The notes below the pieces were generated by a model that was not told the origin of the DNA, made no database searches, and was given only the letters and a program-made list of their open reading frames with translations. Position numbers and translations under genes: made by a program. Of a stretch of 64,000 bases of DNA, positions 1 through 62,683 are shown one piece after another; position 1 is the first letter of the stretch; every line of letters starts with the position of its first letter. This stretch comes from Escherichia phage W70. Location of the stretch: the sequence record OP778610; one strand, given 5' to 3'.

Positions 1-892
1 GGTTTCAGGGATAGGCAACATTGATCAAGTCATCACCGATGATATCCGTGCTGGTAAAGTGACTTCCGGTAACACTGTTATCACTCGCACTGTCGGGTCT
101 AATGACCCTGCTCTTGAAGTTCGTGGACCAGGTGAGATTCAGGGCGACCTTAATGTAACCGGAACTGTAACTGGTAACATCGACCTTAGCTCTCAGGACG
201 TTAACGTTGCTTCTATGACCTCAACGGGAACAATAAATGCCCTTTCCATTGAGTCTCGTACATCGGTAATTGGATTATCTGGTACATTCGGTGAAGATTA
301 TGAAGGTGCACCTACATACGGGATAACTTCTCTTTCCGGCGCAAACATCAACAAGAACCTTCGAGTTGGTGGAAACCTGACTGTTGTTGGTAACATCTCT
401 GGCAATATCGACTTGTCTGGAAAGGCGATCGAGCCTGCATCTTTGTCTACCACGACAGCTACGTTAACGACGGCGAACATAACAGACCTGACTGTAACTG
501 GTCAGTTTAATATCCCGACTGTACCGTTAAATGTTCAATCCCTTAGTTCTGAAAACGCTATTTCCGCAAGCAAGTTCAGCACCACACCAAAAGAAGTAAG
601 CACCACCTCTTCTTCTTATATCCCAGACGGCTCAACGAGCATATATAACGTAAACGTTATAAATGATGTTGAAGTGAAAGCGCCGATTGGCCTGTTGAGT
701 TCAGGAAAAGGTGAGTCAGTATTCCTCTTCTTTGAACAGGATGGTACTGGTGGACATGCGGTAACATTCGGATCGGAGTTTGTTGTGCACGGTACTGAAA
801 CCATCAACACAGATGCAAACACTGTATCGGTAGTTAACATGGTTTATCGTGGCAAAGGCCCATTGATTGACGTATTCATCACTCGTCGCTAA
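1..892 (+). CDS. tail fibre-like protein, 5' end outside window
   Basis: Frame open from window edge to stop at 890-892; Thr/Ser/Gly/Asn-rich, repeated GNIDLS segments; terminator follows. Confidence 0.55.
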   Translation, partial: VSGIGNIDQVITDDIRAGKVTSGNTVITRTVGSNDPALEVRGPGEIQGDLNVTGTVTGNIDLSSQDVNVASMTSTGTINALSIESRTSVIGLSGTFGEDYEGAPTYGITSLSGANINKNLRVGGNLTVVGNISGNIDLSGKAIEPASLSTTTATLTTANITDLTVTGQFNIPTVPLNVQSLSSENAISASKFSTTPKEVSTTSSSYIPDGSTSIYNVNVINDVEVKAPIGLLSSGKGESVFLFFEQDGTGGHAVTFGSEFVVHGTETINTDANTVSVVNMVYRGKGPLIDVFITRR

Positions 893-893
893 T

Positions 894-920
894 AGAGGCC
901 CTTCGGGGCCTTTTCTTTTT
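894..920 (+). terminator. intrinsic terminator
   Basis: GC stem gaggccc-ttcg-gggcc followed by T-run, directly after stop. Confidence 0.7.
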
Positions 921-931
921 AGGAGGACAAC

Positions 932-2167
932 ATGATCCCTTTTCCAATTATTAATTTCGGTGGCGGTGTTCCACTACCTGTAGGCGTTACAATCAAGTAT
1001 GCAGTAAGTACCAGCACCGGAAATATTTTTATTCTGCTTACCAATGGGCATCTATATGTAACCGGATCTAATTATCTAAACGGGCTTGGTAAAACAGGGA
1101 CCACAAATAATGCAACTTCGGGATGGTCACTTACTAACACAGGTGTTGAAGAAGTTTATGAGGTAGGAACAGAAAGTACACTGTACGGCGGTGTGTGGGT
1201 TAAGAAAAATAATAACCACTATGAATATATCTCTGCCGTAGTCTTTCCCACTGTTGACACAACTCTCCAAAACAGTTGGAACGTCTTGCCTGAATCCGCA
1301 TACATCGTTGATGGTGTAAATATCTTATCTTCAGCAATACAAATAGCCAGATCATACGCGATCCAACCCGACGGCACTGTTTACAGACTGCTTCCAGAGG
1401 GGCCGCAAGTAGCTTGGCCTGAAAAAACAAAATACCTGTATTTTGCAAACTATAATGCCATTCGTGTCGAGGTGGATGGGACTTTAAAATACCGAGGCGA
1501 CAATGGTGTAGATCAAGTGGCAGGCACTTCTGCCGGAACAACATTATCAACTTGGACAACCATCGGGGATTCTTCTGTAAGGTATATTAGGGCAAAATGT
1601 GCTCGTGGTCAAGTGGCTAACACGAGTGGCGGTTCAGGTGCTCAATCTATTGTACTTGTTGTTGCACAGAGGGAAGATGGGTCATGGGATGCAGTTGGAT
1701 CGACAGCAAGAGCAGGGATAAACTCAACCAACGTCCTCGGTCCTAATTTAGCACCTATGACAAGCATACCTGCGGGGGTTGAAGTTTATGTCACTAACCA
1801 GGTCAGTTATACAAACGCAAGTGTGGGAACAAGGGGAGCATTGCAAGTGTTCATCTCCGATAGGGTTAATGGCATCTATCAATCAACGGGTGGACAAGGT
1901 GGATACACCTATTCTTTATTTAGGAATCTTTCTATAACCACTAATGCAACATCTTTCGATAATATATCTGAAGATATTATAAACGATGGTGGTATCCTTC
2001 ACATGACGGGTTCATTATCCGATACTTTCAAAGTGATTGTTAGTGGTAATGGTAATCTTTACTGGACAGGGAGAGGATATTCAGGGGCTATGTACCCTGC
2101 TGACTTTACGGCCTCTAATACGATAGCTCAGAAGTTTAACTTGGAAGGTATAGTTATTCCAGCATAA
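932..2167 (+). CDS. RCC1-like repeat protein, probable fibre or receptor-binding component
   Basis: AGGAGG RBS 6 nt upstream; repeats such as LYVTGSNYLNGLGKTG and LYWTGRGYSG. Confidence 0.55.
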   Translation: MIPFPIINFGGGVPLPVGVTIKYAVSTSTGNIFILLTNGHLYVTGSNYLNGLGKTGTTNNATSGWSLTNTGVEEVYEVGTESTLYGGVWVKKNNNHYEYISAVVFPTVDTTLQNSWNVLPESAYIVDGVNILSSAIQIARSYAIQPDGTVYRLLPEGPQVAWPEKTKYLYFANYNAIRVEVDGTLKYRGDNGVDQVAGTSAGTTLSTWTTIGDSSVRYIRAKCARGQVANTSGGSGAQSIVLVVAQREDGSWDAVGSTARAGINSTNVLGPNLAPMTSIPAGVEVYVTNQVSYTNASVGTRGALQVFISDRVNGIYQSTGGQGGYTYSLFRNLSITTNATSFDNISEDIINDGGILHMTGSLSDTFKVIVSGNGNLYWTGRGYSGAMYPADFTASNTIAQKFNLEGIVIPA

Positions 2168-2170
2168 AGA

Positions 2171-2201
2171 AAAGGCGCTCAAATGAGCGCCTTTATTTTT
2201 A
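2171..2201. terminator. bidirectional intrinsic terminator
   Basis: Hairpin aggcgctc-aaat-gagcgcct flanked by T-runs on both strands, between convergent genes. Confidence 0.7.
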
Positions 2202-2215
2202 TCTAAATTTTACGA

Positions 2216-3391
2216 TCAAAACGGAATATCGTCGTCAAAATCCATATCATCTACAGACATATTTACATGTCCTTCAATATCAGGGGTAGGTGAATCTTCT
2301 GCTGACGGAGTTAACTGCGGTTCCGGCTCAGGTTTCTTTTCCTCTTGCTTAGGAGTTGAAGCACCGTTACGGATCTTATCTTCCAATTGACAGATGAATC
2401 GGAAATTCTCTTCAGTCTTAGCAATAAAGGTTTCGATATTGTCACGACCCCAACGGGCAGAAAGAATGCCACACTGGCCTAAACGAGCACCGAAAGAGTA
2501 ATCATCCATAGATTTAAACTCTTCACGCAGTTTTGCTTTGATCGAATCCATCGCTGCAAGAACTTGTTCTACGATCACACCCTGATTTGCAATAGTTTCA
2601 TCAGGGAACATTGCATCGGTAATAGATAGTGCATTACCTAAACGAATAGGTAGATCATCTTTACCTTTACCTGAACGTGATCCTGTTCCAGTACTTGCAC
2701 CTTTTGGACCGTAAGCTTTAAAGCCTGTAACCGTACCATCATCTGAACGAACACCTGCAATACGACCACCTTCTGTAATCTGACCCGTCTGTTCATCAGT
2801 GAGGTTTACAGTAACTTCTGTGCCGTCTTCCAGCTTAACAACTACCTTATTGCCTTCGATAGATGTGATATCACCATAAATCTTCTTAGCTGCACCACCA
2901 GACGGCTTTTGCTGCTGTTGGGAACCACTTGATTGCTGCTGTTGCTGACGAGGCTCACGAGCACCGGATGCGTCAGTAATCTTGATACGTGCTTTCTTAC
3001 CTTCTGTAGAAGAACCTTGACTACCATCTTGTTTGGTATAGGTCTTGATAACAACAGGTAAACGAATTTTCATACCCTCTTTAAGATCGGTGTAACCACC
3101 TTCAGGATTTTTAATCTGGAACTGATTCTCATACTTCAGATTTTTAACTTCACCCTCACCAAAAGAAATCCATGCTTGATCTTCACCTTCTTTAAGAAGA
3201 ACCGCATAGCGGTGGGTATTGTTAATGCTTTTCTGCTGACCAGTATTCTTGTCTTTGAAGGTAGTCACTCGTGGGCTACCATCTTCATTAATACGTTTGA
3301 TCATGATACGTTCAATCGTACCTGCTGCAATGTTTACTGTGGTATCGGAAACAGCATCGTATACAGCATTGATAACTTTAACTTCAGACAT
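2216..3391 (-). CDS. single-stranded DNA-binding protein candidate with host-SSB-type C-terminal tip
   Basis: C-terminus DDMDFDDDIPF matches the bacterial SSB tail; Gln/Gly-rich linker (QQQQQSSGSQQQQ); sits in replication array. Confidence 0.55.
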   Translation of the reverse strand: MSEVKVINAVYDAVSDTTVNIAAGTIERIMIKRINEDGSPRVTTFKDKNTGQQKSINNTHRYAVLLKEGEDQAWISFGEGEVKNLKYENQFQIKNPEGGYTDLKEGMKIRLPVVIKTYTKQDGSQGSSTEGKKARIKITDASGAREPRQQQQQSSGSQQQQKPSGGAAKKIYGDITSIEGNKVVVKLEDGTEVTVNLTDEQTGQITEGGRIAGVRSDDGTVTGFKAYGPKGASTGTGSRSGKGKDDLPIRLGNALSITDAMFPDETIANQGVIVEQVLAAMDSIKAKLREEFKSMDDYSFGARLGQCGILSARWGRDNIETFIAKTEENFRFICQLEDKIRNGASTPKQEEKKPEPEPQLTPSAEDSPTPDIEGHVNMSVDDMDFDDDIPF

Positions 3392-3474
3392 TTAAATCTC
3401 CTTTAACTATTGAACACACCACTTAAGGCCGAGAAACTATATTACAACTAACTTATTTGAATTGCAAACAACTT

Positions 3475-3855
3475 TTAGAGATAAACTCGCTTAACTTTTT
3501 CATGAACATTATCAAACAAAGTGTTGATCATCTGCAAGTCTTTAATAAGTTCTTCCGTAAATTGTTCTTCTTTGTGAGCAAACACACGAGAACGGTCAAT
3601 GTTTACAGGATCTGAACTTTGGTCGCCTGACAGATCGAAAATGTCGATACCGATACGAGCACGGCCTTTTTCAATCTTGTTGTTTTCATCAATACCGAAG
3701 ACACTCATGATTTGCATTTCACGATCTTCTTCACTGTTTGTGTAAATGATCGTCGTATTCAAATTCTTAACACCATCGTAAATGTGAATGTTACGTGTCG
3801 CAGAGATAGGAATCCAATCAGCAACCAAATAATCTTTACCGTCGAAAATACTCAT
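3475..3855 (-). CDS. hypothetical protein
   Basis: 126-aa ORF in co-directional array; no motif recognised. Confidence 0.5.
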   Translation of the reverse strand: MSIFDGKDYLVADWIPISATRNIHIYDGVKNLNTTIIYTNSEEDREMQIMSVFGIDENNKIEKGRARIGIDIFDLSGDQSSDPVNIDRSRVFAHKEEQFTEELIKDLQMINTLFDNVHEKVKRVYL

Positions 3856-3909
3856 CTTCTTTCCTCTTTTGTTTAAGTGGGGCCATTATGCCCCACACTT
3901 AACTTTCTG

Positions 3910-4482
3910 TCAAGGACGTTTCGGTGGACTAACGACACCTTTTTTAGATAAAGGTAATTCGTCTGCATCTTTTCCACGGAGAGATTCTAACCACTCATCT
4001 AAAGATAGAGGTACTTTGCCAACACCCTTGGACCATACAGATAAGCAATACAGGTCGTATGCAGATGGGCCAGCATCACCCTTGTCACCATACGGCCCTT
4101 TTAAACTCGCCAACCAATCCTTTTCATTCAGTGGGATAGTGCCTGGATCTTCTTGTCGAAGAACTCTTAGGTATGTTTCATAAGCAGACTCTCCACGGGG
4201 ACCCATTGGACCAGGTAAACCTTGCGGTCCCTTTGCATAGTCTAAATATGCAGACTTTGAACCATCATTGACCACTGAAACTTTATACAATGACCAAGCC
4301 AACAGAACTATCCAACAAGCAAACAATGCAAGCGGGTAAGGGATCATTGAAGTAAAGAATGACAGGGCTAAAATTACAACCTTGTTCTTGTGATCACGAC
4401 GGAAAGCGATGATCACAGGGGCTAACCAGATAGCAAAGATAACCCACGCAGATAAGATAAACAACCAACTAATGTATTCCAT
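3910..4482 (-). CDS. membrane protein with collagen-like G-X-Y triplets
   Basis: Hydrophobic N-terminal half (at least two TM-like stretches); GPQGLPGPMGPRGES and GPYGDKGDAGPS triplets. Confidence 0.55.
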   Translation of the reverse strand: MEYISWLFILSAWVIFAIWLAPVIIAFRRDHKNKVVILALSFFTSMIPYPLALFACWIVLLAWSLYKVSVVNDGSKSAYLDYAKGPQGLPGPMGPRGESAYETYLRVLRQEDPGTIPLNEKDWLASLKGPYGDKGDAGPSAYDLYCLSVWSKGVGKVPLSLDEWLESLRGKDADELPLSKKGVVSPPKRP

Positions 4483-4670
4483 TAAGCCTCCTCAGTATCG
4501 TCTTTAAAGTAATCTAACATCCAACTCTCTACAGGTTTCGCATAGTAACCCGTTCGCCCTTTCTTTTGGAACTCCATAACAATTTCATTTGCAATACCTT
4601 TTGTGATTGCGATCCCGATCAGTGCACCACCAGGCCCCATTACTGCATGTGAACTAAGATCATTACTCAT
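4482..4670 (-). CDS. hypothetical protein
   Basis: 62-aa ORF, start overlaps upstream stop. Confidence 0.4.
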   Translation of the reverse strand: MSNDLSSHAVMGPGGALIGIAITKGIANEIVMEFQKKGRTGYYAKPVESWMLDYFKDDTEEA

Positions 4671-4962
4671 TTTTAACCCCCTTCATTTTATCTCTTAAAC
4701 TTTGAGCATCCCACGTATAACCTGAGGAGATACCTTTTTCACGTTCACTATCTTTGAACTTGCAAATTACAGATTTTGCTTCACCATCAACAACAACCGC
4801 ATAACTGTTGTAGTAATTGTGTTGCTTCTTGCAAAATTCGTGTAACTCCTTGACCTCTATTGGCATCAGAGAAGGTAGATTTTTGTATCGCTTTGTCTGA
4901 TCATCTTCACCCTCTCCGCAACCAACAAGAAGAAGTATACATAAAATGATTAACCTTTTCAA
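4663..4962 (-). CDS. putative lipoprotein
   Basis: N-terminus KRLIILCILLLVGC resembles a lipobox signal; TTG start in track. Confidence 0.5.
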   Translation of the reverse strand: MKRLIILCILLLVGCGEGEDDQTKRYKNLPSLMPIEVKELHEFCKKQHNYYNSYAVVVDGEAKSVICKFKDSEREKGISSGYTWDAQSLRDKMKGVKNE

Positions 4963-5112
4963 TAGCTACCCCCAAAATATTTTGTAGTCTCTACTGCAAA
5001 TATTGTCCCAAGTATGAACCATGTCGCACTTAGCACGTTGAAAGGTAAAAACCTCGATCCTGCAAGAGAAACCATAATAAAAAACGTTACAAAAATCTCT
5101 GGAGGAATCATC
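4963..5112 (-). CDS. small hydrophobic peptide (48 aa)
   Basis: ATG overlaps upstream stop (ATGA); two hydrophobic stretches; below ORF-track cutoff. Confidence 0.3.
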
Positions 5113-5512
5113 ATTGTTTGATAGTCCCTTTGGCGATCATCTCGTCAAGTTCATCTTCCGCACGACACATGATTTGGTAGATAGTTTCTGGATTGTTTAA
5201 GAATTCTGTGTACTTCTTGATACGACAAACTAAACGTGCACGAACTTTACGCTCACGGGCCACATGATTAAAGTAATGTCCCTTTTGTCTGTAGACCCAA
5301 GCATAATATACAGTTTTTGCTCTCTGGCGATCAGAACCTAAACGTTCAGCTAATTCTGTGTACGGGTCATTGTTGGTTGGACCAAACAAAAATATTTCTG
5401 CAAAACTTTCCTTCATGATACGAGCTTCTTCATCCGTAACTCGCGGACATTCTTCAGAACCGTAACGTGGGGTTTTAGTGGCATTTGGCTTCTTAGGGTA
5501 TACTTTACGCAT
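5111..5512 (-). CDS. hypothetical basic protein
   Basis: 133-aa ORF, Arg/Lys-rich. Confidence 0.5.
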   Translation of the reverse strand: MRKVYPKKPNATKTPRYGSEECPRVTDEEARIMKESFAEIFLFGPTNNDPYTELAERLGSDRQRAKTVYYAWVYRQKGHYFNHVARERKVRARLVCRIKKYTEFLNNPETIYQIMCRAEDELDEMIAKGTIKQ

Positions 5513-5579
5513 TTCATCACTCCTCTAATTAAAACTCTTACTCCCGATGTGAGGAGCCTTTCGGCCCCTCCCTTAAATA

Positions 5580-6188
5580 TCAATCACAACTGCTTGAAGA
5601 ACTGCTACTGCTACTATCCGAAGAATAACTATCGTAAGATGATGAGCTATCATACGAACTTGATCGACTTGGAGAACAGTAAGAACTTGAACTACTTGTA
5701 CGATCTTCACTGGATGACATTACGGCAGCATACGTTGCCACACCACCTAAAGCTGCCACCTGAGGATCAACCTGGCTAGTCCCGTACCCGTTTGGGGAGT
5801 CGCTCATCTTACGTGGTGCTGCCCGACGTGCCTGATCAATATACTGTCGCTTTGCCTTCGGCGGTAATTTCTTACCTTGAGCATAGGACGGTAATTCAAC
5901 GCCCTTCAGTTGTTCATCCAAGGACTTAGGCGGTGTAGCCTGAGCTTTTGGGCGTTCAATTGAGATATCTACAACCTTCATTGTTTTATCTTTAAGGTTT
6001 ACCCCTACCAACGCTTCATTTTCCTTTAGTGGTTCTTCTAAAGATCGTGTTTCAACTGGACTGAATTTAACGCTTGCAGTTTCTTGACGTTGTTCAGCTT
6101 GCTTTGCGATATACTTATCGATCGCCGCAGTTTCTACTTCCAGAGGAATAAATAATGATTTTACCCAAGCAACAAACTTCTTGATCAT
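5580..6188 (-). CDS. hypothetical protein with Ser-rich C-terminal tail
   Basis: C-terminal 50 aa almost entirely Ser/Tyr/Asp. Confidence 0.5.
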   Translation of the reverse strand: MIKKFVAWVKSLFIPLEVETAAIDKYIAKQAEQRQETASVKFSPVETRSLEEPLKENEALVGVNLKDKTMKVVDISIERPKAQATPPKSLDEQLKGVELPSYAQGKKLPPKAKRQYIDQARRAAPRKMSDSPNGYGTSQVDPQVAALGGVATYAAVMSSSEDRTSSSSSYCSPSRSSSYDSSSSYDSYSSDSSSSSSSSSCD

Positions 6189-6409
6189 ACTCTTTCTCCT
6201 TTTTCATCAATAACGATTAATGGCTCAATAACTAAAAGGCGCTGCTTCATAAGACTTTTTATAGTCTCATCGATATCAGATAGAAGAATATCTTTTTGAC
6301 TTTCTATCCAATTACGTGCTGCCTTTTCTGAAACAAATGCAATACCTTCTTGACCAATATCCCATTCACAGAATACTTTATACACCATCATCTTCTCCCT
6401 TGTCAACAT
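6185..6409 (-). CDS. hypothetical protein
   Basis: 74-aa ORF. Confidence 0.4.
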   Translation of the reverse strand: MLTREKMMVYKVFCEWDIGQEGIAFVSEKAARNWIESQKDILLSDIDETIKSLMKQRLLVIEPLIVIDEKGERV

Positions 6410-6695
6410 TTTTCGGATTAAGTTTCTTTTCTGCGGCCTTCAAAATAATATCCAGCTTTTCAATTTCCTTATGTAAAGGCTCAGATAATAACTTCTCACC
6501 AAAAAGCCAGAATTTCTTCATGCCTTTCTTAACGCACTTTCCCATAAAGCCCGCGAGGTCTTCTAGTCGCCAAGCAATAAAACTAAATATTGCAGCTAAA
6601 AGGTGAATCAAGGCCAGTAGTAAACGATGCGGGTTTAGTACAGCAAGGCACAGGATCATAAAGATTATTTTAGTAAAACCCCAAATAATTTTCAT
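6378..6695 (-). CDS. hypothetical membrane protein
   Basis: Hydrophobic N-terminus; start uncertain. Confidence 0.35.
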   Translation of the reverse strand: MKIIWGFTKIIFMILCLAVLNPHRLLLALIHLLAAIFSFIAWRLEDLAGFMGKCVKKGMKKFWLFGEKLLSEPLHKEIEKLDIILKAAEKKLNPKNVDKGEDDGV

Positions 6696-7078
6696 TCGTA
6701 ATTGATCTCCACTTTAACAATTTTACCAGTTTTATCATTGAATACTTCAATGTCATAGTATTCAACAACGCCTTCATCATCAAAAGAACTTTTTTGTTTG
6801 CAAGGTGATACCCAAAAACCGTGGATTACTGCCTCCTCCAGTCCGTCGGTATGTGATACAACACTCAATGTTGGGTAAGGGACCATAATAGGTTTTACCT
6901 CACCACAACCACACGTACAGCAAAATACTTCATCTTCTTCCAGTTGGTACAGTCGCTTTTCTGGAACAAAGGTCAGATGCGCCAAAGGATATTTAGAGAC
7001 GATGGCATTAATATAAGGTTTTCCTGCCAAGCTGTCAATAAATTCATTAAACTCTTTTCTATTTTTTGATAAGCTCAT
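6692..7078 (-). CDS. hypothetical Cys-cluster protein
   Basis: CCTCGCGE cysteine cluster. Confidence 0.45.
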   Translation of the reverse strand: MSLSKNRKEFNEFIDSLAGKPYINAIVSKYPLAHLTFVPEKRLYQLEEDEVFCCTCGCGEVKPIMVPYPTLSVVSHTDGLEEAVIHGFWVSPCKQKSSFDDEGVVEYYDIEVFNDKTGKIVKVEINYE

Positions 7079-7311
7079 CGAGTACCTCCAAAAATATTTA
7101 AAGCTTTAGAATAATCAATGTGACCTGGAACAGTGTGGGCCTCTTGTACAAGGCATTGCCGACAAATACGTGACACAACTGTTGTCTTGATCTCTTCTGT
7201 ATCGTAGAAGCGAGACATTACCTTTGTAACTTGATTGCATTGAGTAATAACAAAATCGTGTTTACAACTTGGTTTGTTTTCTTCAGTTTCTTTCTTTTTA
7301 AAAGGCCACAT
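7075..7311 (-). CDS. hypothetical Cys-rich protein
   Basis: CKHDF...CNQ...CRQC pattern. Confidence 0.4.
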   Translation of the reverse strand: MWPFKKKETEENKPSCKHDFVITQCNQVTKVMSRFYDTEEIKTTVVSRICRQCLVQEAHTVPGHIDYSKALNIFGGTR

Positions 7312-7319
7312 GGTGACTC

Positions 7320-7502
7320 CTATTCTTCAACTATTTCGTATTCATCTTTCAAGAGCATAAATTGATAGCCCTTGCCCTTATTCGCAATAATAGTACCAGA
7401 CGCGCTCTCTTTTGTCACGAAAAGAATTGAATCTTTTTGGACACCGTAATACTTAAGTTGCTCAAGCAGTTTGGTCTTTGATTCTAAGATTTTGACTTTC
7501 AT
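7320..7502 (-). CDS. hypothetical protein
   Basis: 60-aa ORF. Confidence 0.35.
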   Translation of the reverse strand: MKVKILESKTKLLEQLKYYGVQKDSILFVTKESASGTIIANKGKGYQFMLLKDEYEIVEE

Positions 7503-7597
7503 TAGATATCAATTACTACGATTTCAAGCATTGAGTTTTCAACAGCTTCCTTATGTTTTGCTGAGTAAAATTTCATTTAATTATCCTCTCTGCCAGT

Positions 7598-7864
7598 TTA
7601 TAATTTTTCTTTGCCTAAAGTAAGACTAATTTCGAAAGTTTTTGTGATAACTTTATCGTCTTTGTCGAAGAAATCAAATTGGACATAACTCTCGGTCGAA
7701 CTGACAACCAGACCTACAGAGACAGTCCCTTCTGGTACGAGAGCCTTATATTCTTCTTTTAGCACAACGTCGTAAAAATACAACGCTCCACAATAAACTT
7801 CATCCCAACCATCAAAAGATTCGATGAAAGCTTTTTCAATACCAACTAAAGTATTTTCTGACAT
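7598..7864 (-). CDS. hypothetical protein
   Basis: 88-aa ORF. Confidence 0.4.
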   Translation of the reverse strand: MSENTLVGIEKAFIESFDGWDEVYCGALYFYDVVLKEEYKALVPEGTVSVGLVVSSTESYVQFDFFDKDDKVITKTFEISLTLGKEKL

Positions 7865-7887
7865 TATATTATCCTCTTCGTTTCAAG

Positions 7888-8524: not shown

Positions 8525-8606
8525 CTTGTATACTATTTAATTAAAGATTTTATGAATGCTTGGTAGGACCCTTCTTTAAATACTCATCTGGATAATAAAA
8601 ATCATC

Positions 8607-8984: not shown

Positions 8985-8994
8985 TACAATCTCC

Positions 8995-9354: not shown

Positions 9355-9365
9355 CTTTGTTCTCC

Positions 9366-9740: not shown

Positions 9741-9807
9741 CTTTGCTCTCCTCTTCAGTTGATGGATACATCTTAGTTGATATAGACATGTCTTGTCAAT
9801 AACTTTT

Positions 9808-9843: not shown

Positions 9844-9848
9844 AATTA

Positions 9849-10148
9849 CTAGTGGCACGCCCCCCAGTTCATCCCTGTGAGGTATTCACCTGTTATGTGG
9901 ACAGGAGATTTCATCATTCGTGCTGCTTGCTCTACACAACGAACAACCATCTCTCCAACTGGACAATACATGATCGTGTAGATTCCATTCTCATCAGGAT
10001 CACACTTAAACTTCCCTTCTTTCACACAATGACCATCCAAGATCATTTTCTTAGCCAAGCAAGCTTCTACAAATTTCTTCGCGTCAGCTTCGTTGTCAAA
10101 GGTCCAGGTCTTCTTGAACTTGTGCGGTACTTCAAGCTGGTATTCATC
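9849..10148 (-). CDS. DNA polymerase (family A), exon 2
   Basis: DEYQLEV completes motif C when joined to exon 1 (YYH|DE); C-terminus NWGACH like Pol I/T7 ...H terminus. Confidence 0.65.
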   Translation of the reverse strand, partial: DEYQLEVPHKFKKTWTFDNEADAKKFVEACLAKKMILDGHCVKEGKFKCDPDENGIYTIMYCPVGEMVVRCVEQAARMMKSPVHITGEYLTGMNWGACH

Positions 10149-10920
10149 CAAAAGTTTAACGAGGTCGTTACTCTCGCCCACATCATTACATGTTGCCATA
10201 CGTTTTCACATATGGATCGGACTATATCACCATCCTTTTCAGGATGCTCCCCATTTCGACGGCACTTGCTCGCCTACGCCTCTCGGCTAGTCTCTGAACG
10301 TTAGGACCATGTGTAGTCACAAGAGATGTGTGTCCAGTTTTTACGGATTTTTATGGACCTTACCACGTTGTAAGGATAACCCATATCCCGAATCTGTGCA
10401 CTTCCATAACCTTGCCCCAGGAAGTTGCAAATCTCTCTAACCTCTTCTTCGGTAACTATACTTCTGGCGTTATCAACCCCTGTTGCTGAACGACATTTAT
10501 CAGCAAAGGTTTTCTTGATATTTCCACCACGAGTTGTCCATTGGAGGTTTGAATAGTGGTTATTCCTTTTGTCAGGCCACTTATGATCAACCTCCGGCAA
10601 ACCTTCAGGGTTTGGTACAAAACACTCTGCCACCAAAACGTGAACAGCCTTTGTAGTCGTCCTTTTGTTGAGATACAGACTTACAATAAGATACCCACGT
10701 CCATTATCAACTGCCGCCATTGGTTTCCCTCGACGACCTATAATGGTCCCGTCTTCATAAACCTTGTAACCGAAATAATCTTTATATTCCACATGATCCT
10801 CTTCGCTGCTGATTAACATAGTCTCATACTAACTCACACTTGAATTAATATCAACCTTAGTCTTCCAGCAATTAAAGGAGTTTTCGATGTGAGTTACCTC
10901 ACAAAGCCACAATGTTACTT
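10149..10920 (-). mobile_element. group I intron in DNA polymerase gene, HNH-ORF-containing
   Basis: In-frame stop right after exon 1; core elements GACTAGCCGAGAGGCGTAG and GATATAGTCC on minus strand; ends in G before exon 2. Confidence 0.65.
10301..10819 (-). CDS. HNH homing endonuclease (intron-encoded)
   Basis: LPEVDHKWPDKRNNHYSNLQWTT HNH-type motif; lies inside intron. Confidence 0.7.
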   Translation of the reverse strand: MLISSEEDHVEYKDYFGYKVYEDGTIIGRRGKPMAAVDNGRGYLIVSLYLNKRTTTKAVHVLVAECFVPNPEGLPEVDHKWPDKRNNHYSNLQWTTRGGNIKKTFADKCRSATGVDNARSIVTEEEVREICNFLGQGYGSAQIRDMGYPYNVVRSIKIRKNWTHISCDYTWS

Positions 10921-13251
10921 ATGGTAATAGATAATACGTCTAACGCCTTCATCATACCAACCTTTCTTAACCAACTGCCAGTGCAGGAGGATACCCACCA
11001 AGTCAAACAGTGCAGCACCACCATTCTGCTGATAAGCATTAAGCAATGAGTGTTTGGAACGAGTGTAGATCTTACGTCCATCAAGACCGTAGATGAATCG
11101 CTTACCGTTAGCTTCCCAAAACTTCTCTAGTGCTTCTTTACGACCTTTCAAGCCGATGTTGCTATCCCAGAATGCGTCGATTACTGCCTGGGCCTTCTCA
11201 AGAGTGATCCCCAGCATTGATGCAATCTTCGCTGCCTGTGCCCCGTACATAATTCCGTATGTCACACCTTTACCTTCACCACGAGAAACCTTCTTCCCTG
11301 CCGCTTTGGTATACGCTTCTGCGTTTCGGGAGTGAGCATCTCCAGATTCCATGATACGAAGATAAGCACCGCCATCGAAATCATAAGCGCCCCATGCTGC
11401 GATCATACCTTCTAGGTTTGAACCGTCGATACCTACCTGATATTTACCCTCAGAGGCTCTGAATAGTTCACGCATCTCTTTACCGAGAAGAACTTTCTCA
11501 TCCGGCTTAGGTACGTTTGCTACGATCGTATGCTTACGACGACCTGTGTTAGTTATTCCACTATAACGGGCCGGAAGTTTACCGTCAACTCGTAGACGTG
11601 GATGGTTAAGCCATCCGGTATCAACCTTCTCTTCTTTCAGCGGGTCAAGAACAGATCGTCGGTTACGTAAAGACAGCCATTTAACAATCTGTTTAGCCAT
11701 TTCACCATCTACTCGCTCAAGGTTAGGGCAAAGACCCTGTTGATCCTTAAGTTGTGGAGATGTAGGTAATGCACGAGCTTTCTTACGGAAAAACTTGAAC
11801 ATCTTTTCTTTATCTGACCACTGCTTAGGTGTGATCGCCAAGCTTTTCAGAATCAGATCACGATACTCCGTCTGATCCAAATCTTCAATGTATTGACGAA
11901 CAATCAGATCAACTTCACTATCGGGACGTTGTTTCTTGAACTGATCTTTAGTTGCATCCTTTGTACGCCAAATTGTTGGGACCCATCCTGCATCACGGAT
12001 CAGGAACTTCTTAACGTCGTCCTGGTTACCAATACGCATCGGAATCATAATGTCCGGCATCTTTTGTTCTTTGATATCCATCAAAGCACGAGCCATATCT
12101 TCCGGCGGCAAAGGAACAAGCCCTTGCTGCTTAACGTTTTGTGCACGGATAAAATCACCCATTTTGGATTCGTCCTCTACACCGTGTTCAACACAATACT
12201 TGATCGCGGCAGCAGTAAGAGATCCGTCAGCCTTAAACGGCTTACTTGGTGCACCTTTAAATTCCAAGGCTTCCCAATTGATATTATAACCTAACTTCTC
12301 TAACCATTTCCAACCTGTACCGGAAAGAGATCCATCACCCTTGAAAGGTTTGGATGGGAATGTCGGTTGTGCTGATTTCGACATCTCTTTCTTCGGCAAC
12401 TTAGGTTCAACCTCTAACTCAATGTCAGTCATCATCTTATCGATACGATCACGAAGCTTGAGTGCTTTTTCTTCATCAAATGAAACACCCTGAATTTCTT
12501 GCTCAATCATCAGGTAGTCAGTCAACATACCTCGACGCAGGGCATTCTTCCAGTTGATCATTTTATACTTCTTCTGATCTTTGTCTGTTTCATCCTTAAA
12601 CATGAAGCGTTTATCATCCGGCATGGATTCACAGGAGATCTCTTTCATCAGAGCATCCCACACCATTTCGTTGATAATTACGTCTTCAATAATACGATCG
12701 CAATACTTCCAAAGTGGAAGGCCACGCCAATCTTCAATCGCCACTTTCTGGTTAGCTACTCGCATACCCCAAGCTTCAAGCCCGTGTGGCCCTACAGGCT
12801 TCATTTTACCTGTGACGGGGTTCTTTACCATCTCAGGACAACCGCGAGGCAGAGGGCGATCTGGATACAATGTACGGGACATTGAAAGTGTATCGAAGAT
12901 GGTTACTTGTTTACCATTGATCGTCCCCATGCAACCAGGGTCTGCAAACATATCGTAAGTTGTTCCTAGCATCTTCTTAAACAACTGGAGGTCATAGCCG
13001 AAGATGTTGTGGATAGCAACTGCTTTAGGCTCGGTAACGAACCATTCGTTTAATTCTTCAAGGGTGCGGATCTTGAAGTTTTTACCTTTAGATTGGATAA
13101 ATTTAACAGCTTGATCGTAACCTTCTCGCTGTGGATCAAGAAAGATGTTCCAGTTATCTTTTTTGTACTCTTTAAACAAGATGCAGTGGATTAGATCAAC
13201 TTCTGTCAACAGACCATTAGCTTCCGCATCTCCAATAAATAAGCCTTTCAT
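10921..13251 (-). CDS. DNA polymerase (family A), exon 1
   Basis: N-terminal FIGDAEANG 3'-5' exo motif; KKVSRGEGKGVTYGIMYGAQAAKIA resembles motif B; ORF stops one codon after ...YYH. Confidence 0.75.
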
Positions 13252-19449: not shown

Positions 19450-19971
19450 TCAGAAAGGTGCTTCGTCGTCGAAATCTACATCTTCAACTTCCGGTACATC
19501 AGGAATGTCACCTGCGGATTCAACGATACTCTGTTGTTCCCACGTAGGTTCCTCTGAAGGTTGGTCCATTTCTTCCATAACCTTCTTGATCTCTTCCTCT
19601 TGCTCACGCAGGAAGTTATCATCCGGCTCAGGAATATCTTCCTCTTTAATATCTGAACGAGTGAGATCACTGTTTTGTTCAGACAGAGGTTGAATCTCTG
19701 CTGCTTTAGGCTTAAAGTCTGGAGAACGATGATCATCTTCTGGATGAGCGGCATACCACTCACGAAGAGTTTCATAAGGACTCTCTAAGAAGCCCTCTGG
19801 CGGTTCCAGATAATCACCCGTATCAATGTCATAGAACACAGGGAATTTACCAGCACGACCGTGTTTACGGTCATCCAGAATAACAAAGTAAGAAGTGTTA
19901 CGTTGTTTCATCGGGAGTTCTGGATCTTTGTTACGTTCAATTCCCCACATATAGTAAGTATTCTTTATGTC
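19450..19971 (-). CDS. primase-helicase (T7 gp4-like), exon 3 with acidic C-terminal tail
   Basis: GIERNKDPE...VILDDRKHGRAGKFPVFYDIDTGDYLEP parallels T7 gp4 C-terminal region; ends DVDFDDEAPF. Confidence 0.6.
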   Translation of the reverse strand, partial: DIKNTYYMWGIERNKDPELPMKQRNTSYFVILDDRKHGRAGKFPVFYDIDTGDYLEPPEGFLESPYETLREWYAAHPEDDHRSPDFKPKAAEIQPLSEQNSDLTRSDIKEEDIPEPDDNFLREQEEEIKKVMEEMDQPSEEPTWEQQSIVESAGDIPDVPEVEDVDFDDEAPF

Positions 19972-20808
19972 CAGGCTACTCGCTAGGTAGCCTCGGTGTG
20001 CTAAGACACCCGCCCATACTTTCATACAGGAACAGACTATATCATCACCTTTCGGTGCTCTCCACTTCGGAACCGCTTGGTCCCTACGCCTTTCGGCTAG
20101 TCGTTGAAGATTTTGCATATTCAGGATACATGGTCCAAGTATACAGATTGGCAATTTCTTTCCAATCCCTTTTGCTTCGGATGTTTAGAACAACCGCCCT
20201 TTTAACTTGAATGCCACTACTTTCGGCTATTCTCTTTGCAGTCCATCCCTCTGAAAGTAACTGGCATATCTTATGCACGTCGTTTTCAGAAAGTCCGGTA
20301 CTGTAATGATCTTGCCCTCTAATTGGTAATTTGTTTTCTATCGAGTGTCGAAGATTTTCCTCTTCTGTTACCCACTCAAGGTTATCTTTATGATTGTTCA
20401 ACTTATTACCGTCTTTATGATTTACCTCTGGTAAATTTAAAGGGTTTGGTATATAAGCCTTCGCGACCATCCTGTGAACATACTCAGGCTTCCGCTTACC
20501 ATTTAAGATAACATTAACAACAAAATACCCTGTACCCTTACTTAATGAATTTTTAAGGAATCTTCCTGAAAATTCACTAAAAACTTGTCCATCTTCAGTG
20601 ATAAAGTATGGACTGTTTTCTTCTATTCTTACCATAAGTCCCCTCTTTCATGGGACCAAGATCTAGAATATGCAACTTTCCTGCTGATTACCCAATCCTG
20701 TACCTTTTTAAACATTCACGCTTGCCTTTGCAGACTACGTTGTAGTGTTACAGGCTCTAAGGGCTTCCCAGCAATTCAAAGAGTTTTAGATGCGCTCTAC
20801 TGCTGTTA
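19972..20808 (-). mobile_element. group I intron in primase-helicase gene, HNH-ORF-containing
   Basis: Stop directly after exon 2; core GACTAGCCGAAAGGCGTAG and GATATAGTCTG; 3' boundary approximate. Confidence 0.6.
20084..20635 (-). CDS. HNH homing endonuclease (intron-encoded)
   Basis: LPEVNHKDGNKLNNHKDNLEWVT HNH-type motif. Confidence 0.7.
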   Translation of the reverse strand: MVRIEENSPYFITEDGQVFSEFSGRFLKNSLSKGTGYFVVNVILNGKRKPEYVHRMVAKAYIPNPLNLPEVNHKDGNKLNNHKDNLEWVTEEENLRHSIENKLPIRGQDHYSTGLSENDVHKICQLLSEGWTAKRIAESSGIQVKRAVVLNIRSKRDWKEIANLYTWTMYPEYAKSSTTSRKA

Positions 20809-21399
20809 ACGCATCATTGCACGGCTACCAGCAAACTGCGCTGACTGGACTTGACCACCAAATTCATGAGGCTTGCCAGATTCAGGCTTATTAAGGTGAC
20901 AGAAGCAATAATAAGTAAAGCCAAGCTCTTTTGCCAGTTTGGAGATCTCATCCGAGAATCGTTCCAGTTCCTGGTTAGCTTCAGAAGCACTCATACCTTG
21001 CACAAGACGAGTGATCGGGTCAATAAAGATATCTTCACAACCTTCTACGATCACTGCGTGACGGATAGCACCTTTCAGTTCATCCCATACTGCACGACCA
21101 TAGTTGTTATAATAGATAACACTATCACCAACTTCATCAGTAGCTTTGATCAGTTCTTCTTGCTTAAAGTATCCACGTTGACCTTCAAAAACTTCATTGC
21201 CCCAAATGTCACGGTAAGTTCCATCTTCTTGAGGAATCATTACCTTTTCGGCATTAACAAAGTCTTTATGATAACGCTTACCTGCGATCTTCTTACAAGT
21301 GATCTCGTTCTCTTCTTCAAACTTAAACACCGCAGCTTTTGACTTTTCAATACCCGTGATGTGTTCAACCATTTGGTTAAGAAGTTCAGACTTGCCCAT
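20809..21399 (-). CDS. primase-helicase, exon 2 (helicase core)
   Basis: Starts MGKS (Walker A remainder); IFIDPITRL Walker B-like; FCHLNK and QFAGSRAMM helicase motifs. Confidence 0.65.
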
Positions 21400-21688
21400 T
21401 TTCACCGTTATGTTCGACAGGGTTCGCTACTCCCTGCCCGTTCTCTTACGAACTGCTACATGTCCCCATGCAGACCAGACTATATCTTCAACCTGTTTCC
21501 AGGTGCTATGCACTTCGGACCGCTTGGCCCTACTCTACTCGATTCAAGAGTCTAGCTCTTGTCTTTCGATAGTCGTTGCTCCTTCCTTTTTCAAGGCTTG
21601 GATCAGGATTACGTGTTCTACGCTTCCCCTGAGTTCACATAGTATTTAGTCGAGGCATCTCTGCCAAGGCTGGCTAGACTTAATGTTT
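21400..21688 (-). mobile_element. group I intron in primase-helicase gene, ORF-less
   Basis: About 290 nt between exon 1 ...IGAG and exon 2 MGKS...; core GCTAGACTC and GAAGATATAGTCTGG; no ORF. Confidence 0.6.
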
Positions 21689-22624
21689 ACCAGCACCGAT
21701 GAAGTAACCTTCACCTGGACGACGACCCAAGGTAAGCTTGGTCATGGTGGGCCAAGGGAACTTCTTGCCGAGTTTAGGGATCTCATGTGCCTTTTCGCGG
21801 AACTGTGAATAAGTCGAGAAACCATCAGGCACATATTCTTTTGGCTTCATTGCAGCCCAAAACAACTGATCAGAAAGACCTTTGTTATACATATCGCAAG
21901 GGTCCATATCTTCTGGAATATCCACGACCTTCATTTGTGGAATTACAGAGTATACCGCTGCAACTGCATCTTTACCTTTCATGATCCCTTTGGCCTTCTC
22001 TGCTTCTGTCGCACGGTCAGCATCGAAAGCTACGATAATCTCTTCAAACTTACTCAGAAGCTTATAGTTATTCTTCTGTGATAAGTTTTGCACGGCATTG
22101 GATGTACCGTTAGAGATAGATACAACTGTGAAGTTTGGTTTACGAGTGGAACCATCCTTCGGTTTGTACTTCTCTGTCAATACCTGCCACAAGATTGCAG
22201 CATCGTATTCACCTTCAGTGATAAAGATCATACGTTTGGAAGACTTGTTTGCACCTTCCAGACCAAACATATCACAGGCTACAGATTGGAAACCGATAGT
22301 TGTAAAGTGCCCTTTCTGTTGCTTAGGGATCGTAAGATCACGCTTTTTAAAACCTACAACCTTACCTTCCAATGTGTACGGAAAATAATGTGCTTCTGGA
22401 GTCATACCGTCTTTAGCTGACAACTTGGTACGAATACCAAATCGTTTAGCTGTCTTTTCGTCGATACCACGCTCAGGGATACTTTTACACGGGTAAGTCA
22501 ATACATCTTCAACTGTTTCTTCCACACGAGACACACCGCCGCCATAATTACGTGCCACCGAAGCTTTAGGGTTTTTATGTCCAAACTTATAACCGCCAAA
22601 CAAACTTTCGCCAATAGTGCTCAT
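21689..22624 (-). CDS. primase-helicase, exon 1 (TOPRIM primase domain)
   Basis: TOPRIM motifs ITEGEYDA and FDADRA; ends GEGYFIGAG (start of Walker A). Confidence 0.7.
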
Positions 22625-58724: not shown

Positions 58725-58725
58725 A

Positions 58726-61727: not shown

Positions 61728-62165
61728 TCATACCCCCTCTTGAATTTTTATCTCTGCCTCGTCCAAAGCTTCACCCATTGCAAGGATATACCTTGAAATT
61801 TCAGGAAACAACGCTTCAAACATCTCTATCTCTTCTTCAAGTATATCCGTTGGATCGAGGAAATACTCTTCAAGGACTATCCGCTTTGTCCCACTCTTGT
61901 TGCCATAAGTAACAAAAACGAAACGATCAGGTTTGCCAATAGAATCTTTGGAGGTTCTCCATTGGAAAAGATGCCTGTTTGAACTTATGTTTATCCTTTT
62001 GTCAGCCTTGTCCAGCGGGATTCTAAAACTTACGGATGTTGACATTCCTTCGGATTGAGTCCATTTTTCACTCTTCTTAAAAATATTGTTCCGGTATCTG
62101 TTTTTACCTAAGGCATTAAAAGTCCACTGCCTGCTCAATCTCTCGATTATCTCTTTAGTTTTCAA
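61728..62165 (-). CDS. hypothetical protein
   Basis: 145-aa ORF. Confidence 0.45.
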   Translation of the reverse strand: MKTKEIIERLSRQWTFNALGKNRYRNNIFKKSEKWTQSEGMSTSVSFRIPLDKADKRINISSNRHLFQWRTSKDSIGKPDRFVFVTYGNKSGTKRIVLEEYFLDPTDILEEEIEMFEALFPEISRYILAMGEALDEAEIKIQEGV

Positions 62166-62683
62166 AACGGTATGTCCTCGTCAACAATAAATTTTATAGC
62201 ATTCTTTACAGCCGCTTTATTCAGATGTTGAACACGCTGGAAGAACATTAGGTTCAAGTCAAGAAGAATATCATCATCTCCGTACAACGCCGTGAAAAGA
62301 TCAAGCTCTTCATCTGTCGGATGCGTGGGATTCTCAAATAAGCCCTCAAACACCACCTGGGCCTCATTTCTTTTAGCCAGCGTGGTTGAGTCTCGATAGA
62401 TATTTAATACCGTGTGTACATCATCTACGCTTAGGATTTTGACACATTCCAGATCTCCTGTGTCACCATCGAGATAAAGAGTGATCGCAGGAGTTGACCA
62501 ATTTGATTCACTTATTGCATAAACGTAGATGCTTTTGCGATTACCAACTGCAATAGACTCTTCAATTTTCTTTTCTGCCGCCTTAAAGAAAGGTTGGTGT
62601 TTGATCCAATGCTCCCAACCAATCCAACGAGCACCCTTACCATACGCATTCAGCACATGATTCTCAATGTTACGTTTACTCAT
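62162..62683 (-). CDS. hypothetical protein with SSB-tail-like C-terminus
   Basis: Ends IVDEDIPF, close to bacterial SSB tip DDDIPF. Confidence 0.5.
   Translation of the reverse strand: MSKRNIENHVLNAYGKGARWIGWEHWIKHQPFFKAAEKKIEESIAVGNRKSIYVYAISESNWSTPAITLYLDGDTGDLECVKILSVDDVHTVLNIYRDSTTLAKRNEAQVVFEGLFENPTHPTDEELDLFTALYGDDDILLDLNLMFFQRVQHLNKAAVKNAIKFIVDEDIPF

What the first reader, a model, noticed from the sequence alone, without database searches (positions are those of the whole stretch)
2216..3391. SSB-like protein carrying the exact host SSB C-terminal tip
The 391-aa protein ends ...DDMDFDDDIPF. The terminal DDDIPF is the conserved protein-interaction tip of bacterial SSB. A phage protein with this tip could recruit, or compete for, host SSB-binding factors. 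Its N-terminal region is not obviously a canonical OB-fold by eye.
Basis: partly seen in the sequence, partly recalled or inferred. Interest (0 to 1): 0.6.

Follow-up and report, generated by a model that had tools for sequence, protein, structure and literature searches.

The report
Phage ssDNA-binding protein with host SSB tail
This gene most likely encodes the phage's own single-stranded-DNA-binding protein, built on an unannotated fold family but ending in the same nine residues as E. coli SSB, and the phage's primase-helicase carries a similar tail, so the tail looks like a shared docking tag of the replication machinery.

Summary
A 391-aa ORF on the minus strand (2216..3391) ends in MDFDDDIPF, identical to the last nine residues of E. 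coli K-12 SSB. The window comes from a Septuagintavirus (Vequintavirinae) coliphage close to A73.

The protein matches no Pfam or NCBIfam family, only PHROG 4477 ("unknown function"). AlphaFold2 predicts:
- an N-terminal OB fold (pLDDT 91.5);
- a second small OB-like barrel;
- a five-helix domain;
- a disordered acidic tail.

Structure searches return almost only nucleic-acid-binding OB folds (SSB, RPA, PriB, LEF-3).

The family has at least 207 cluster representatives. Of 237 sequences, 185 end in an acidic [ILV]-P-[FW] tip, although the tail before it is unconserved.

The gene closes a T7-like replication module (family A polymerase, gp4-like primase-helicase). No other SSB was detected.

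The primase-helicase also ends in DFDDEAPF, and that tail is conserved in relatives. This parallels T7 gp2.5 and gp4.

My reading is that this is the phage's replicative SSB, of non-canonical architecture, and that its tip recruits partners. Whether the partners are the phage polymerase, host SSB clients or both is untested.

It is a new variant of a known kind and moderately interesting.

The parts
2216..3391 (-). Complete gene for the 391-aa SSB-like protein (stop codon 2216-2218). It equals A73_119 and belongs to PHROG 4477.
   Evidence: ORF list; 100% identity to A73 over the gene; PHROG 4477 at E=1.4e-80 over the full length.
2957..3391 (-). N-terminal OB-fold domain, aa 1-145 (11 strands). 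Conserved basic and aromatic residues: K32, R33, H60, F77, K83, Y87, Q92, K94, K132.
2888..2956 (-). Q/S-rich disordered linker 1, aa 146-168 (EPRQQQQQSSGSQQQQKPSGGAA).
   Evidence: pLDDT <50 for residues 151-165; sequence.
2708..2887 (-). Second, small five-stranded barrel, aa 169-228, with the order b1-b2-b3-helix-b4-b5 (OB-like). Absent from the short (about 260-300 aa) family members.
2657..2707 (-). G/S/K-rich disordered linker 2, aa 229-245.
   Evidence: pLDDT <50 for residues 232-243.
2366..2656 (-). Five-helix domain, aa 246-342, the most widely conserved module of the family (motifs KKD..G.E.GHA.N.A and SDYD.GA.VG.AVLNA in relatives). Function unknown; oligomerisation or partner binding is a guess.
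   Evidence: AF2 pLDDT 85-97. It is the best-matching stretch in most of the roughly 130 short-form representatives. It alone matches the Aeromonas phage proteins. No PDB or Pfam sequence match.
2219..2365 (-). Disordered acidic C-terminal tail, aa 343-391 (3 K/R against 14 D/E).
   Evidence: pLDDT <50 for residues 345-376; composition; unconserved except for the tip.
2219..2245 (-). Tip MDFDDDIPF, aa 383-391, identical to the last nine residues of E. coli SSB.
   Evidence: Family conservation: D384, P390 and F391 invariant; F385, D386, D388 and I389 at 90% or more; census.
3398..3403 (-). Shine-Dalgarno sequence AAGGAG, 6 nt before the ATG.
   Evidence: Read directly from the sequence.
2171..2194 (.). 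Bidirectional intrinsic terminator between the SSB-like gene and the convergent structural gene 932..2167(+).
   Evidence: Terminator scan: 10-bp stem with 6 GC pairs and T-runs on both strands.
19453..19482 (-). Related feature: the C-terminal tail DVDFDDEAPF of the gp4-like primase-helicase (last exon 19450..about 19958). It is an SSB-tip-like acidic tail ending in PF.
   Evidence: Among 28 homologues found, 24 end in an acidic stretch followed by [APCV]-P-F. Further examples in SSBI34, Kashira and ChuuTotoro. PHROG 239 primase/helicase, with Toprim and DnaB_C domains.
9849..13251 (-). Candidate phage partner: a family A DNA polymerase. The main ORF is 10915..13251, an HNH endonuclease ORF lies at 10301..10819, and the polymerase C-terminal piece is at 9849..10199.
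   Evidence: Pfam DNA_pol_A above threshold; PHROG 17 and 8888 DNA polymerase. Its role as tail receptor is inferred only by analogy with T7.
62165..62185 (-). Possible third tip: the 173-aa protein of unknown function (62162..62683, PHROG 12009) ends in VDEDIPF.
   Evidence: The tip is NOT conserved in the Certrevirus homologues, which end ...FFPMKDK or ...VFWEP. Its significance is uncertain.

Best explanation
This is the phage's replicative single-stranded-DNA-binding protein, the functional counterpart of T7 gp2.5 or T4 gp32. It belongs to an unannotated protein family (PHROG 4477).

Proposed mechanism:
- The N-terminal OB fold binds ssDNA exposed at the phage replication fork. The second small OB-like barrel may help, but that is less certain.
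- The helical domain mediates self-association or partner contacts (a guess).
- The long disordered acidic tail ends in a docking peptide, MDFDDDIPF, that recruits replication and repair proteins to SSB-coated DNA. As in other SSBs, the tail probably also folds back on the DNA-binding site when no DNA is bound.
- The phage's gp4-like primase-helicase carries a related conserved tail (...DFDDEAPF), so the two tails most likely dock on a common receptor.
- By analogy with T7, the first candidate receptor is the phage family A DNA polymerase.
- Because the tip is identical to the host's, host SSB clients (chi subunit, PriA, RecQ, ExoI and others) are a second candidate set that is not exclusive of the first.

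Shown here: the ORF, the tip identity, tip conservation, predicted folds, genomic context and the helicase tail.

Inferred: ssDNA binding, the role of the tail and the identity of the partners.
For: (1) Predicted OB folds:
- The N-domain model has pLDDT 91.5 and pTM 0.81.
- Foldseek of the whole model is dominated by bacterial and mitochondrial SSB and PriB, with E from 1e-3 to 3e-2 and probability 0.85-1.0.

(2) SSB-type layout. The protein has folded domains, then a disordered acidic linker, then a tip at the extreme C-terminus.

(3) Selection on the tip. It is nearly invariant in a family that has diverged to 30% identity or less. Of 237 sequences, 185 carry the tip at the C-terminus.

(4) Genomic context:
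- It is the last gene of the leftward replication module, which holds a family A polymerase and a Toprim+DnaB_C primase-helicase.
- The same position, after the polymerase and convergent with a tail fibre gene, is seen in a distant Aeromonas phage short form.
- In rV5-like phage CM1 it lies next to endonuclease VII.
- In a distant metagenomic contig it follows a DnaB_C helicase.

(5) No other SSB was found. phmmer searches with E. coli SSB, epsilon34 SSB, T7 gp2.5 and T4 gp32 against all ORFs of A73 and the window gave no hit.

(6) The T7 parallel:
- T7 gp2.5 ends ...EEADEDGDF and gp4 ends ...TDWSNDTDF.
- The gp2.5 tail contacts a basic patch on T7 polymerase (PMC12339929).
- Here the SSB-like protein and the primase-helicase both end in acidic ...PF tails, and this is conserved in relatives.

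(7) Expression signals. There is a strong ribosome-binding site, as expected for an abundant protein.

(8) Existing annotation. Several GenBank records already label homologues as SSB: JLBYU08, ESCO25/37, BME3, vB_Ec-G1 and Eryne.
Against: - There are no experimental data for any family member, and I found no paper on the family.
- No sequence homology to any characterised SSB is detectable. hhalign gives about 1% probability against the E. coli SSB OB domain and 0.2% against gp2.5.
- OB folds also occur in proteins that do not bind DNA.
- The second barrel and the helical domain are net acidic, so they may not contact DNA.
- The phmmer check for other SSBs has limited sensitivity.
- About 8% of family members carry a 15-residue extension after IPF. 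That extension would remove the free terminal carboxylate that solved SSB-tip complexes use, so the tip cannot work in the canonical way in all members.
Confidence: 0.7

Rival explanations
1. Host-takeover decoy. The protein's main job is not to coat phage ssDNA. It presents many copies of the host SSB tip, so that it titrates or redirects host SSB-client proteins (chi/Pol III, PriA, RecQ, RecJ, ExoI, Ung, RNase HI). This would shut down host replication and repair, or steal those enzymes for the phage.
For: The nine terminal residues are identical to host SSB. The phage has its own polymerase and primase-helicase, so it could afford to cripple host replication. T7 gp2.5, which serves a phage-internal partner, does not copy the host tip.
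Against: Canonical phage-encoded SSBs that are true SSBs also keep host-type tips, for example epsilon34 gp35. Two predicted OB folds and the replication-module position fit a real SSB. A pure decoy would not need about 340 residues of conserved folded domains. The primase-helicase tail (...DFDDEAPF and variants such as ...DWDDQPPF and ...DDDSCPF) resembles the tip without copying the host sequence, which argues for a phage-internal receptor.
Confidence: 0.12
2. A replisome or recombination accessory factor rather than the bulk SSB. It could be a helicase loader or mediator (like T4 gp59 or UvsY) or an annealing-type protein. It would use its OB folds to recognise forks or ssDNA, and its tail to dock onto the same receptor as the helicase.
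Against: No other SSB candidate was found in the genome, and a phage with its own T7-like replisome normally encodes one. The layout of OB fold, disordered acidic linker and tip is the hallmark of SSBs. Family members are the only proteins in these phages that any annotator has called SSB.
Confidence: 0.13
3. The tip is a chance or recently captured fragment of host ssb with no function of its own.
For: 25 of the last 30 nt are identical to E. coli ssb.
Against: All five differences are synonymous, and similarity ends immediately upstream of the tip. The tip is conserved across at least 200 divergent cluster representatives while the adjacent tail is not.
Confidence: 0.01

Closest known systems
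Bacterial SSB (E. coli Ssb, Pfam PF00436) and canonical phage-encoded SSBs of that family (e.g. Salmonella phage epsilon34 gp35)
   Same: Both have an OB fold, then a disordered linker, then an acidic tip at the extreme C-terminus. The last nine residues are identical to E. coli SSB. SSB, PriB and mitochondrial SSB structures dominate the Foldseek hits.
   Different: There is no detectable sequence homology in the folded part: no PF00436 hit, and hhalign probability is about 1%. This protein has two barrels plus a 100-residue helical domain and is 391 aa long, against about 170-180 aa. Its oligomeric state is unknown.
Bacteriophage T7 gp2.5 (with gp4 primase-helicase and gp5 polymerase)
   Same: The replisome type is the same: a family A polymerase and a Toprim+DnaB_C primase-helicase. 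In both systems the SSB and the helicase end in acidic tails with a C-terminal Phe. In T7 the gp2.5 tail contacts a basic patch on the polymerase (PMC12339929).
   Different: There is no sequence similarity (hhalign probability 0.2%), and gp2.5 is not among the top structural hits. The tip here is the host-type DDDIPF rather than DGDF. There are additional domains.
Phage HK620 SSB with its partner Sak4
   Same: It is a phage SSB whose last six residues (NDYPPF, resembling DDDIPF) are required to recruit a phage-encoded partner to SSB-coated ssDNA (PMC5928155). This is a precedent for a host-like tip that serves a phage protein.
   Different: HK620 SSB is described as a distant homologue of canonical SSB and as a tetramer. 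The present family is not detectably related, and no Sak4-type partner was identified here.
Multi-OB SSBs: eukaryotic/archaeal RPA, Deinococcus-Thermus SSB, baculovirus LEF-3
   Different: The scores are only at general fold level and sequence identity is 8-15%. None of these proteins carries a bacterial SSB-type tip.

Membership tests
Canonical bacterial/phage SSB family (Pfam PF00436) | Sequence match to the SSB OB-domain profile | tested here: not met
   No PF00436 hit even at E<=1. phmmer and profile searches against PDB match SSB only through the tail. hhalign against the E. coli SSB OB domain gives 0.9% probability.
Canonical bacterial/phage SSB family (Pfam PF00436) | OB fold of the SSB/PriB type | tested here: inconclusive
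Canonical bacterial/phage SSB family (Pfam PF00436) | Acidic C-terminal tip (D-D-D-I-P-F) at the free C-terminus, after a disordered linker | tested here: met
   MDFDDDIPF followed by the stop codon. The tail has pLDDT <50 and is strongly acidic.
Canonical bacterial/phage SSB family (Pfam PF00436) | High-affinity, sequence-independent ssDNA binding; homotetramer | not testable with these tools
   This needs EMSA or fluorescence titration and SEC-MALS.
T7 gp2.5-like SSB family | Sequence or close structural similarity to gp2.5 | tested here: not met
T7 gp2.5-like SSB family | Acidic tail with a terminal aromatic residue, shared with the cognate primase-helicase in a family A polymerase replisome | tested here: met
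   SSB-like protein ends ...DFDDDIPF and primase-helicase ends ...DFDDEAPF. The helicase tail is conserved in 24 of 28 homologues. PolA, Toprim and DnaB_C are present.
PHROG 4477 (phage protein family, unknown function) | Full-length profile match | tested here: met
   E=1.4e-80, residues 4-391 against profile positions 1-393. 96 of 97 short-form relatives also match.
SSB-tip (SSB-Ct) docking peptide that binds host SSB-client proteins | Physical, tip-dependent binding to chi, PriA, RecQ, ExoI and similar proteins | not testable with these tools
   Only the sequence identity of the tip is shown.

The most novel reading that the evidence does not exclude
The acidic ...[ILVA]-P-F tip is a shared address label used by several proteins of this phage lineage: the SSB, the primase-helicase and, in Septuagintaviruses, a 173-aa protein ending in DEDIPF. 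Because it copies the host SSB tip exactly, it would plug the whole phage replisome into the host's SSB-client network, or out-compete host SSB for that network. The recurrent 15-residue cap (A-P-[IV]-G-L-Q-Y-x-x-H-A-I-x-x-L) that follows the tip would be a mobile module that masks or re-addresses it. The cap occurs in about 8% of family members, in canonical P22-like phage SSBs and in some primase-helicases.
Probability: 0.2. Interest if true: 0.75.

Novelty: new variant of a known kind. Interest (0 to 1): 0.5.

Why it matters
- **Annotation.** If correct, a core replication function can be assigned to a large, currently unannotated phage protein family (PHROG 4477). The family has at least 207 representatives at 50% identity and is present in Vequintavirinae, phi92-like and phAPEC8-like phages, Aeromonas Plateaulakevirus and many metagenomic phages. 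Several of these groups are being developed for therapy.
- **Evolution of the tip.** The bacterial SSB tip can sit on an OB scaffold with no detectable sequence relationship to SSB. The interaction peptide has therefore been kept or acquired independently of the DNA-binding domain.
- **A testable model.** The phage primase-helicase carries a related conserved tail. This extends the T7 idea of competing acidic tails on one receptor to a much larger phage group, and it can be tested directly.
- **Defence relevance.** Phage SSBs are known triggers of bacterial defence systems such as retrons and AbpAB (cited). Knowing which protein is the SSB in these phages is therefore useful in practice.

Tried and rejected
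- **Sequence-family assignment.** Pfam, NCBIfam, PHROGs and PDB searches with the single sequence and with two family profiles gave only PHROG 4477 and tail-only matches to SSB.
- **Profile-profile comparison.** hhalign against the E. coli SSB OB domain and against T7 gp2.5 found nothing.
- **Recent capture of the host ssb 3' end.** Rejected. Similarity is confined to the nine tip codons, and all differences are synonymous.
- **The 15-residue extension as a by-product of a homing endonuclease inserted downstream.** In rV5-like CM1 the next gene is endonuclease VII and overlaps the extension. I rejected this as a general explanation, because SSBI34 has the extension with no downstream endonuclease and the motif is conserved at protein level in unrelated proteins.
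- **Co-occurrence of the extension on the SSB and the helicase of the same phage.** Not found. In SSBI34 and Kashira the SSB is capped and the helicase is uncapped.
- **The 173-aa protein's DEDIPF tip as a conserved third client.** It is not conserved in the Certrevirus homologues, so I list it only as noticed in passing.
- **Literature.** Six full-text searches or reads found no experimental work on this family.
- **Window identity.** I first assumed the window was phage A73. It is not identical throughout.

Full report
**1. Observation**

The window holds a 391-aa ORF at exactly 2216..3391, on the minus strand. It starts with ATG at 3391 and ends ...NMSVDDMDFDDDIPF.
- A strong Shine-Dalgarno sequence (AAGGAG, 3398-3403) precedes the start codon.
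- A bidirectional stem-loop terminator (2171-2194) separates the gene from the convergent structural gene 932..2167(+).
- The gene is 100% identical to A73_119 ('hypothetical protein') of Escherichia phage A73, a 142-kb Vequintavirinae myovirus of the proposed genus Septuagintavirus (PMC11370258). That paper does not mention an SSB.
- The window is not A73 throughout. Positions 1-15391 are 99.98% identical to A73. The middle is about 95% identical with indels, and the region is 4,687 bp shorter. It is probably phage W70 or a close relative.

**2. The tip**

E. coli K-12 SSB, read from NC_000913.3, ends ...NEPPMDFDDDIPF. The last nine residues of the phage protein are identical to it (also the PDB 1eqq alignment).
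- At the DNA level, 25 of the last 30 nt are identical.
- All five differences are synonymous third positions, and similarity stops upstream of the tip.
- The pattern is therefore selection on the peptide, not recent capture of host DNA.

**3. The family**

A search of the 5.8-billion-protein collection gave 97 homologues at 28-99% identity. An exhaustive profile search of 1.84 billion cluster representatives gave 207 proteins at E<=1e-3, of which 139 were at E<=1e-10.

Of the 237 sequences in hand:
- 185 end in an acidic [ILVMAC]-P-[FW] tip (DDDIPF 79, DEDIPF 12, DDDVPF 9, DDDLPF 6);
- 19 carry the tip followed by a conserved extension of about 15 residues;
- 5 carry the tip plus one residue;
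- the remaining 28 are fragments, or end in other sequences, some of them acidic with a terminal Phe.

In the alignment, D384, P390 and F391 are invariant, and F385, D386, D388 and I389 are conserved at 90% or more. The roughly 40 residues before them are not conserved.

The family matches no Pfam-A or NCBIfam model, only PHROG 4477, 'unknown function'.

A minority of GenBank records label homologues as SSB: JLBYU08, ESCO25/37, BME3, vB_Ec-G1 and Eryne. I found no experimental paper on the family.

**4. Anatomy**

AlphaFold2 with a 45-sequence alignment gave mean pLDDT 79, with four well-defined parts:

| Residues | Predicted part |
|---|---|
| 1-145 | Eleven-stranded beta domain |
| 146-168 | Disordered Q/S-rich linker |
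| 169-228 | Small five-stranded barrel, order b1-b2-b3-helix-b4-b5 |
| 229-245 | Disordered linker |
| 246-342 | Five-helix domain |
| 343-391 | Disordered acidic tail (3 K/R against 14 D/E) |

Structure searches:
- The N-domain modelled alone reaches pLDDT 91.5 and pTM 0.81.
- Foldseek against the PDB is dominated by bacterial and mitochondrial SSB and PriB, with E from 1e-3 to 3e-2.

Sequence-level links to canonical SSB or to T7 gp2.5 are absent.

The short family members (about 260-300 aa) lack the middle barrel. They consist of the N-terminal OB fold, the helical domain and the tail. One example is the 256-aa protein of Aeromonas phage phiA009, which ends ...ELDWDDSIPF.

**5. Context**

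The gene is the last of the long leftward module that holds the replication genes.
- The module has a family A DNA polymerase (10915..13251). It is interrupted by an HNH endonuclease ORF, with a C-terminal piece at 9849..10199.
- It also has a T7 gp4/Twinkle-type primase-helicase with Toprim and DnaB_C domains.
- The same placement, downstream of the polymerase and convergent with a tail fibre gene, is found in the distant Aeromonas phage.
- In rV5-like phage CM1 the next gene is endonuclease VII.
- In a distant metagenomic contig the homologue follows a DnaB_C helicase.
- phmmer searches with E. coli SSB, epsilon34 SSB, T7 gp2.5 and T4 gp32 against every ORF of at least 60 aa in A73 and the window found nothing. 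No other SSB is therefore detectable, within the limited sensitivity of that test.

**6. A second tail**

Scanning all ORFs for similar ends showed that the primase-helicase ends in ...PEVEDVDFDDEAPF (19453-19482, minus strand).
- Among 28 homologues of its C-terminal part, 24 end in an acidic stretch followed by [APCV]-P-F. Examples are DWDDNAPF, EWDDEAPF, DWDDDPPF and DDMDDDECPF.
- Three further phages agree.
- In a distant contig the helicase ends ...FIDQEFEEF and the SSB-like protein ends ...EFDDDIPW.

This reproduces the T7 arrangement. There gp2.5 (...EEADEDGDF) and gp4 (...TDWSNDTDF) both end in acidic tails with a terminal Phe, and the gp2.5 tail contacts a basic patch on the polymerase (PMC12339929). 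That the gp4 tail uses the same polymerase sites is from my own knowledge of the T7 literature.

**7. Interpretation**

The most economical reading is that this is the replicative SSB of a T7-like replisome. It is built on an OB scaffold with no detectable sequence relationship to known SSBs, and its tip is a docking peptide.

The receptor is not identified.
- The helicase tail argues for a phage-internal receptor, with the polymerase as first candidate.
- The exact identity to the host tip keeps host SSB clients in play.
- Canonical phage SSBs also keep host-type tips (epsilon34 gp35). HK620 SSB uses its host-like tip to recruit a phage protein, Sak4 (PMC5928155). Tip identity alone therefore does not discriminate between the two.

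I put 0.7 on 'replicative SSB with a tip-mediated recruitment function'. I put about 0.12 on a pure host-interactome decoy, about 0.13 on a non-SSB accessory factor and about 0.01 on chance.

**8. Unexplained**

Nineteen family members carry a conserved cap after IPF, with consensus A-P-[IV]-G-L-Q-Y-x-x-H-A-I-[YH]-x-[LI].

The same cap follows the tip in other proteins:
- canonical SSBs of P22-like and lambdoid phages, such as epsilon34 (...MDFDDDIPFAPVTLPFPRHAIHAI);
- the primase-helicase of Klebsiella phage Seu621 (...DDDTPFAPIGLQYAKHAIYVI);
- an annotated AAA ATPase.

The cap is not linked to a downstream endonuclease, and it does not co-occur on the SSB and the helicase of one phage. A capped tip lacks the free Phe carboxylate that solved SSB-tip complexes use (my own knowledge). 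The cap therefore either masks the tip, is removed, or is a second docking motif.

**9. Comparison and novelty**

The protein works like an SSB of the gp2.5 or E. coli SSB kind. It fails the sequence-membership tests for both families, and it passes only the tests for the tip and the replisome context.

Phage SSBs with acidic tips, including host-like ones, are well known. What is new is the scaffold (OB, OB-like barrel, helical domain), the size of the unannotated family, and the matching conserved tail on the primase-helicase.

I rate it a new variant of a known kind, with interest 0.5.

Noticed in passing
window 21456-21721 (-), and 19959-20804: The primase-helicase gene is interrupted here, whereas in A73 it is one continuous 681-aa gene (A73_82). 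There is a 266-nt group I intron (Rfam RF00028, 70.4 bits, E=8e-16). There is also a second 845-bp insertion that carries an HNH endonuclease ORF (20084..20635); it is probably a second intron with a homing endonuclease. The gene pieces lie at 21680..22624, 20806..21405 and 19450..about 19958.
   Followed up: partly
window 9849-13251 (-): The family A DNA polymerase gene is also split. The main ORF is 10915..13251, an HNH endonuclease ORF lies at 10301..10819, and a 116-aa polymerase C-terminal piece lies at 9849..10199. The layout is the same in A73 (A73_98, A73_99, A73_100).
   Followed up: partly
window 62162-62683 (-): A 173-aa protein of unknown function (PHROG 12009) ends in ...KFIVDEDIPF, a third SSB-tip-like end in this phage. 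The tip is present in all five Septuagintavirus-like genomes but absent from the Certrevirus homologues, which are about 35% identical.
   Followed up: yes
L008 (SSBI34) 1394-2593; L009 (CM1) 1322-2593; L010 (epsilon34) 1069-1575; L018 (Seu621) 1-766: A conserved 15-residue cap follows the IPF tip, with consensus A-P-[IV]-G-L-Q-Y-x-x-H-A-I-x-x-[LI]. It occurs in about 8% of this family, in canonical SSBs of P22-like and lambdoid phages, in a Klebsiella phage primase-helicase and in an AAA ATPase. It behaves as a modular motif of unknown function that removes the free C-terminal Phe.
   Followed up: partly
whole window compared with OP778609.1: The window is not phage A73 throughout. Positions 1-15391 are 99.98% identical, 15001-48375 are about 95% identical with several indels, and 50755-64000 are 99.5-100% identical. 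The region is a net 4,687 bp shorter. The pattern is mosaic, consistent with phage W70 (137,323 bp) or a recombinant relative.
   Followed up: partly
window 3475-3855 (-) and 3885-3913 (-): The gene immediately upstream of the SSB-like gene encodes a DUF7325 protein (Pfam E=1.1e-27). It is preceded by a near-consensus sigma-70-type promoter, TTGACA-17-CATAAT. The two genes may form a host-RNA-polymerase-transcribed unit.
   Followed up: no
phage records MG065690, MG065654, MG065677, MG065647 and similar: Records named 'Campylobacter phage' (A135, C15, A13b, D# and others) carry rV5-like homologues with the same identity values as the E. coli rV5-like phages. The host labels look doubtful.
   Followed up: no
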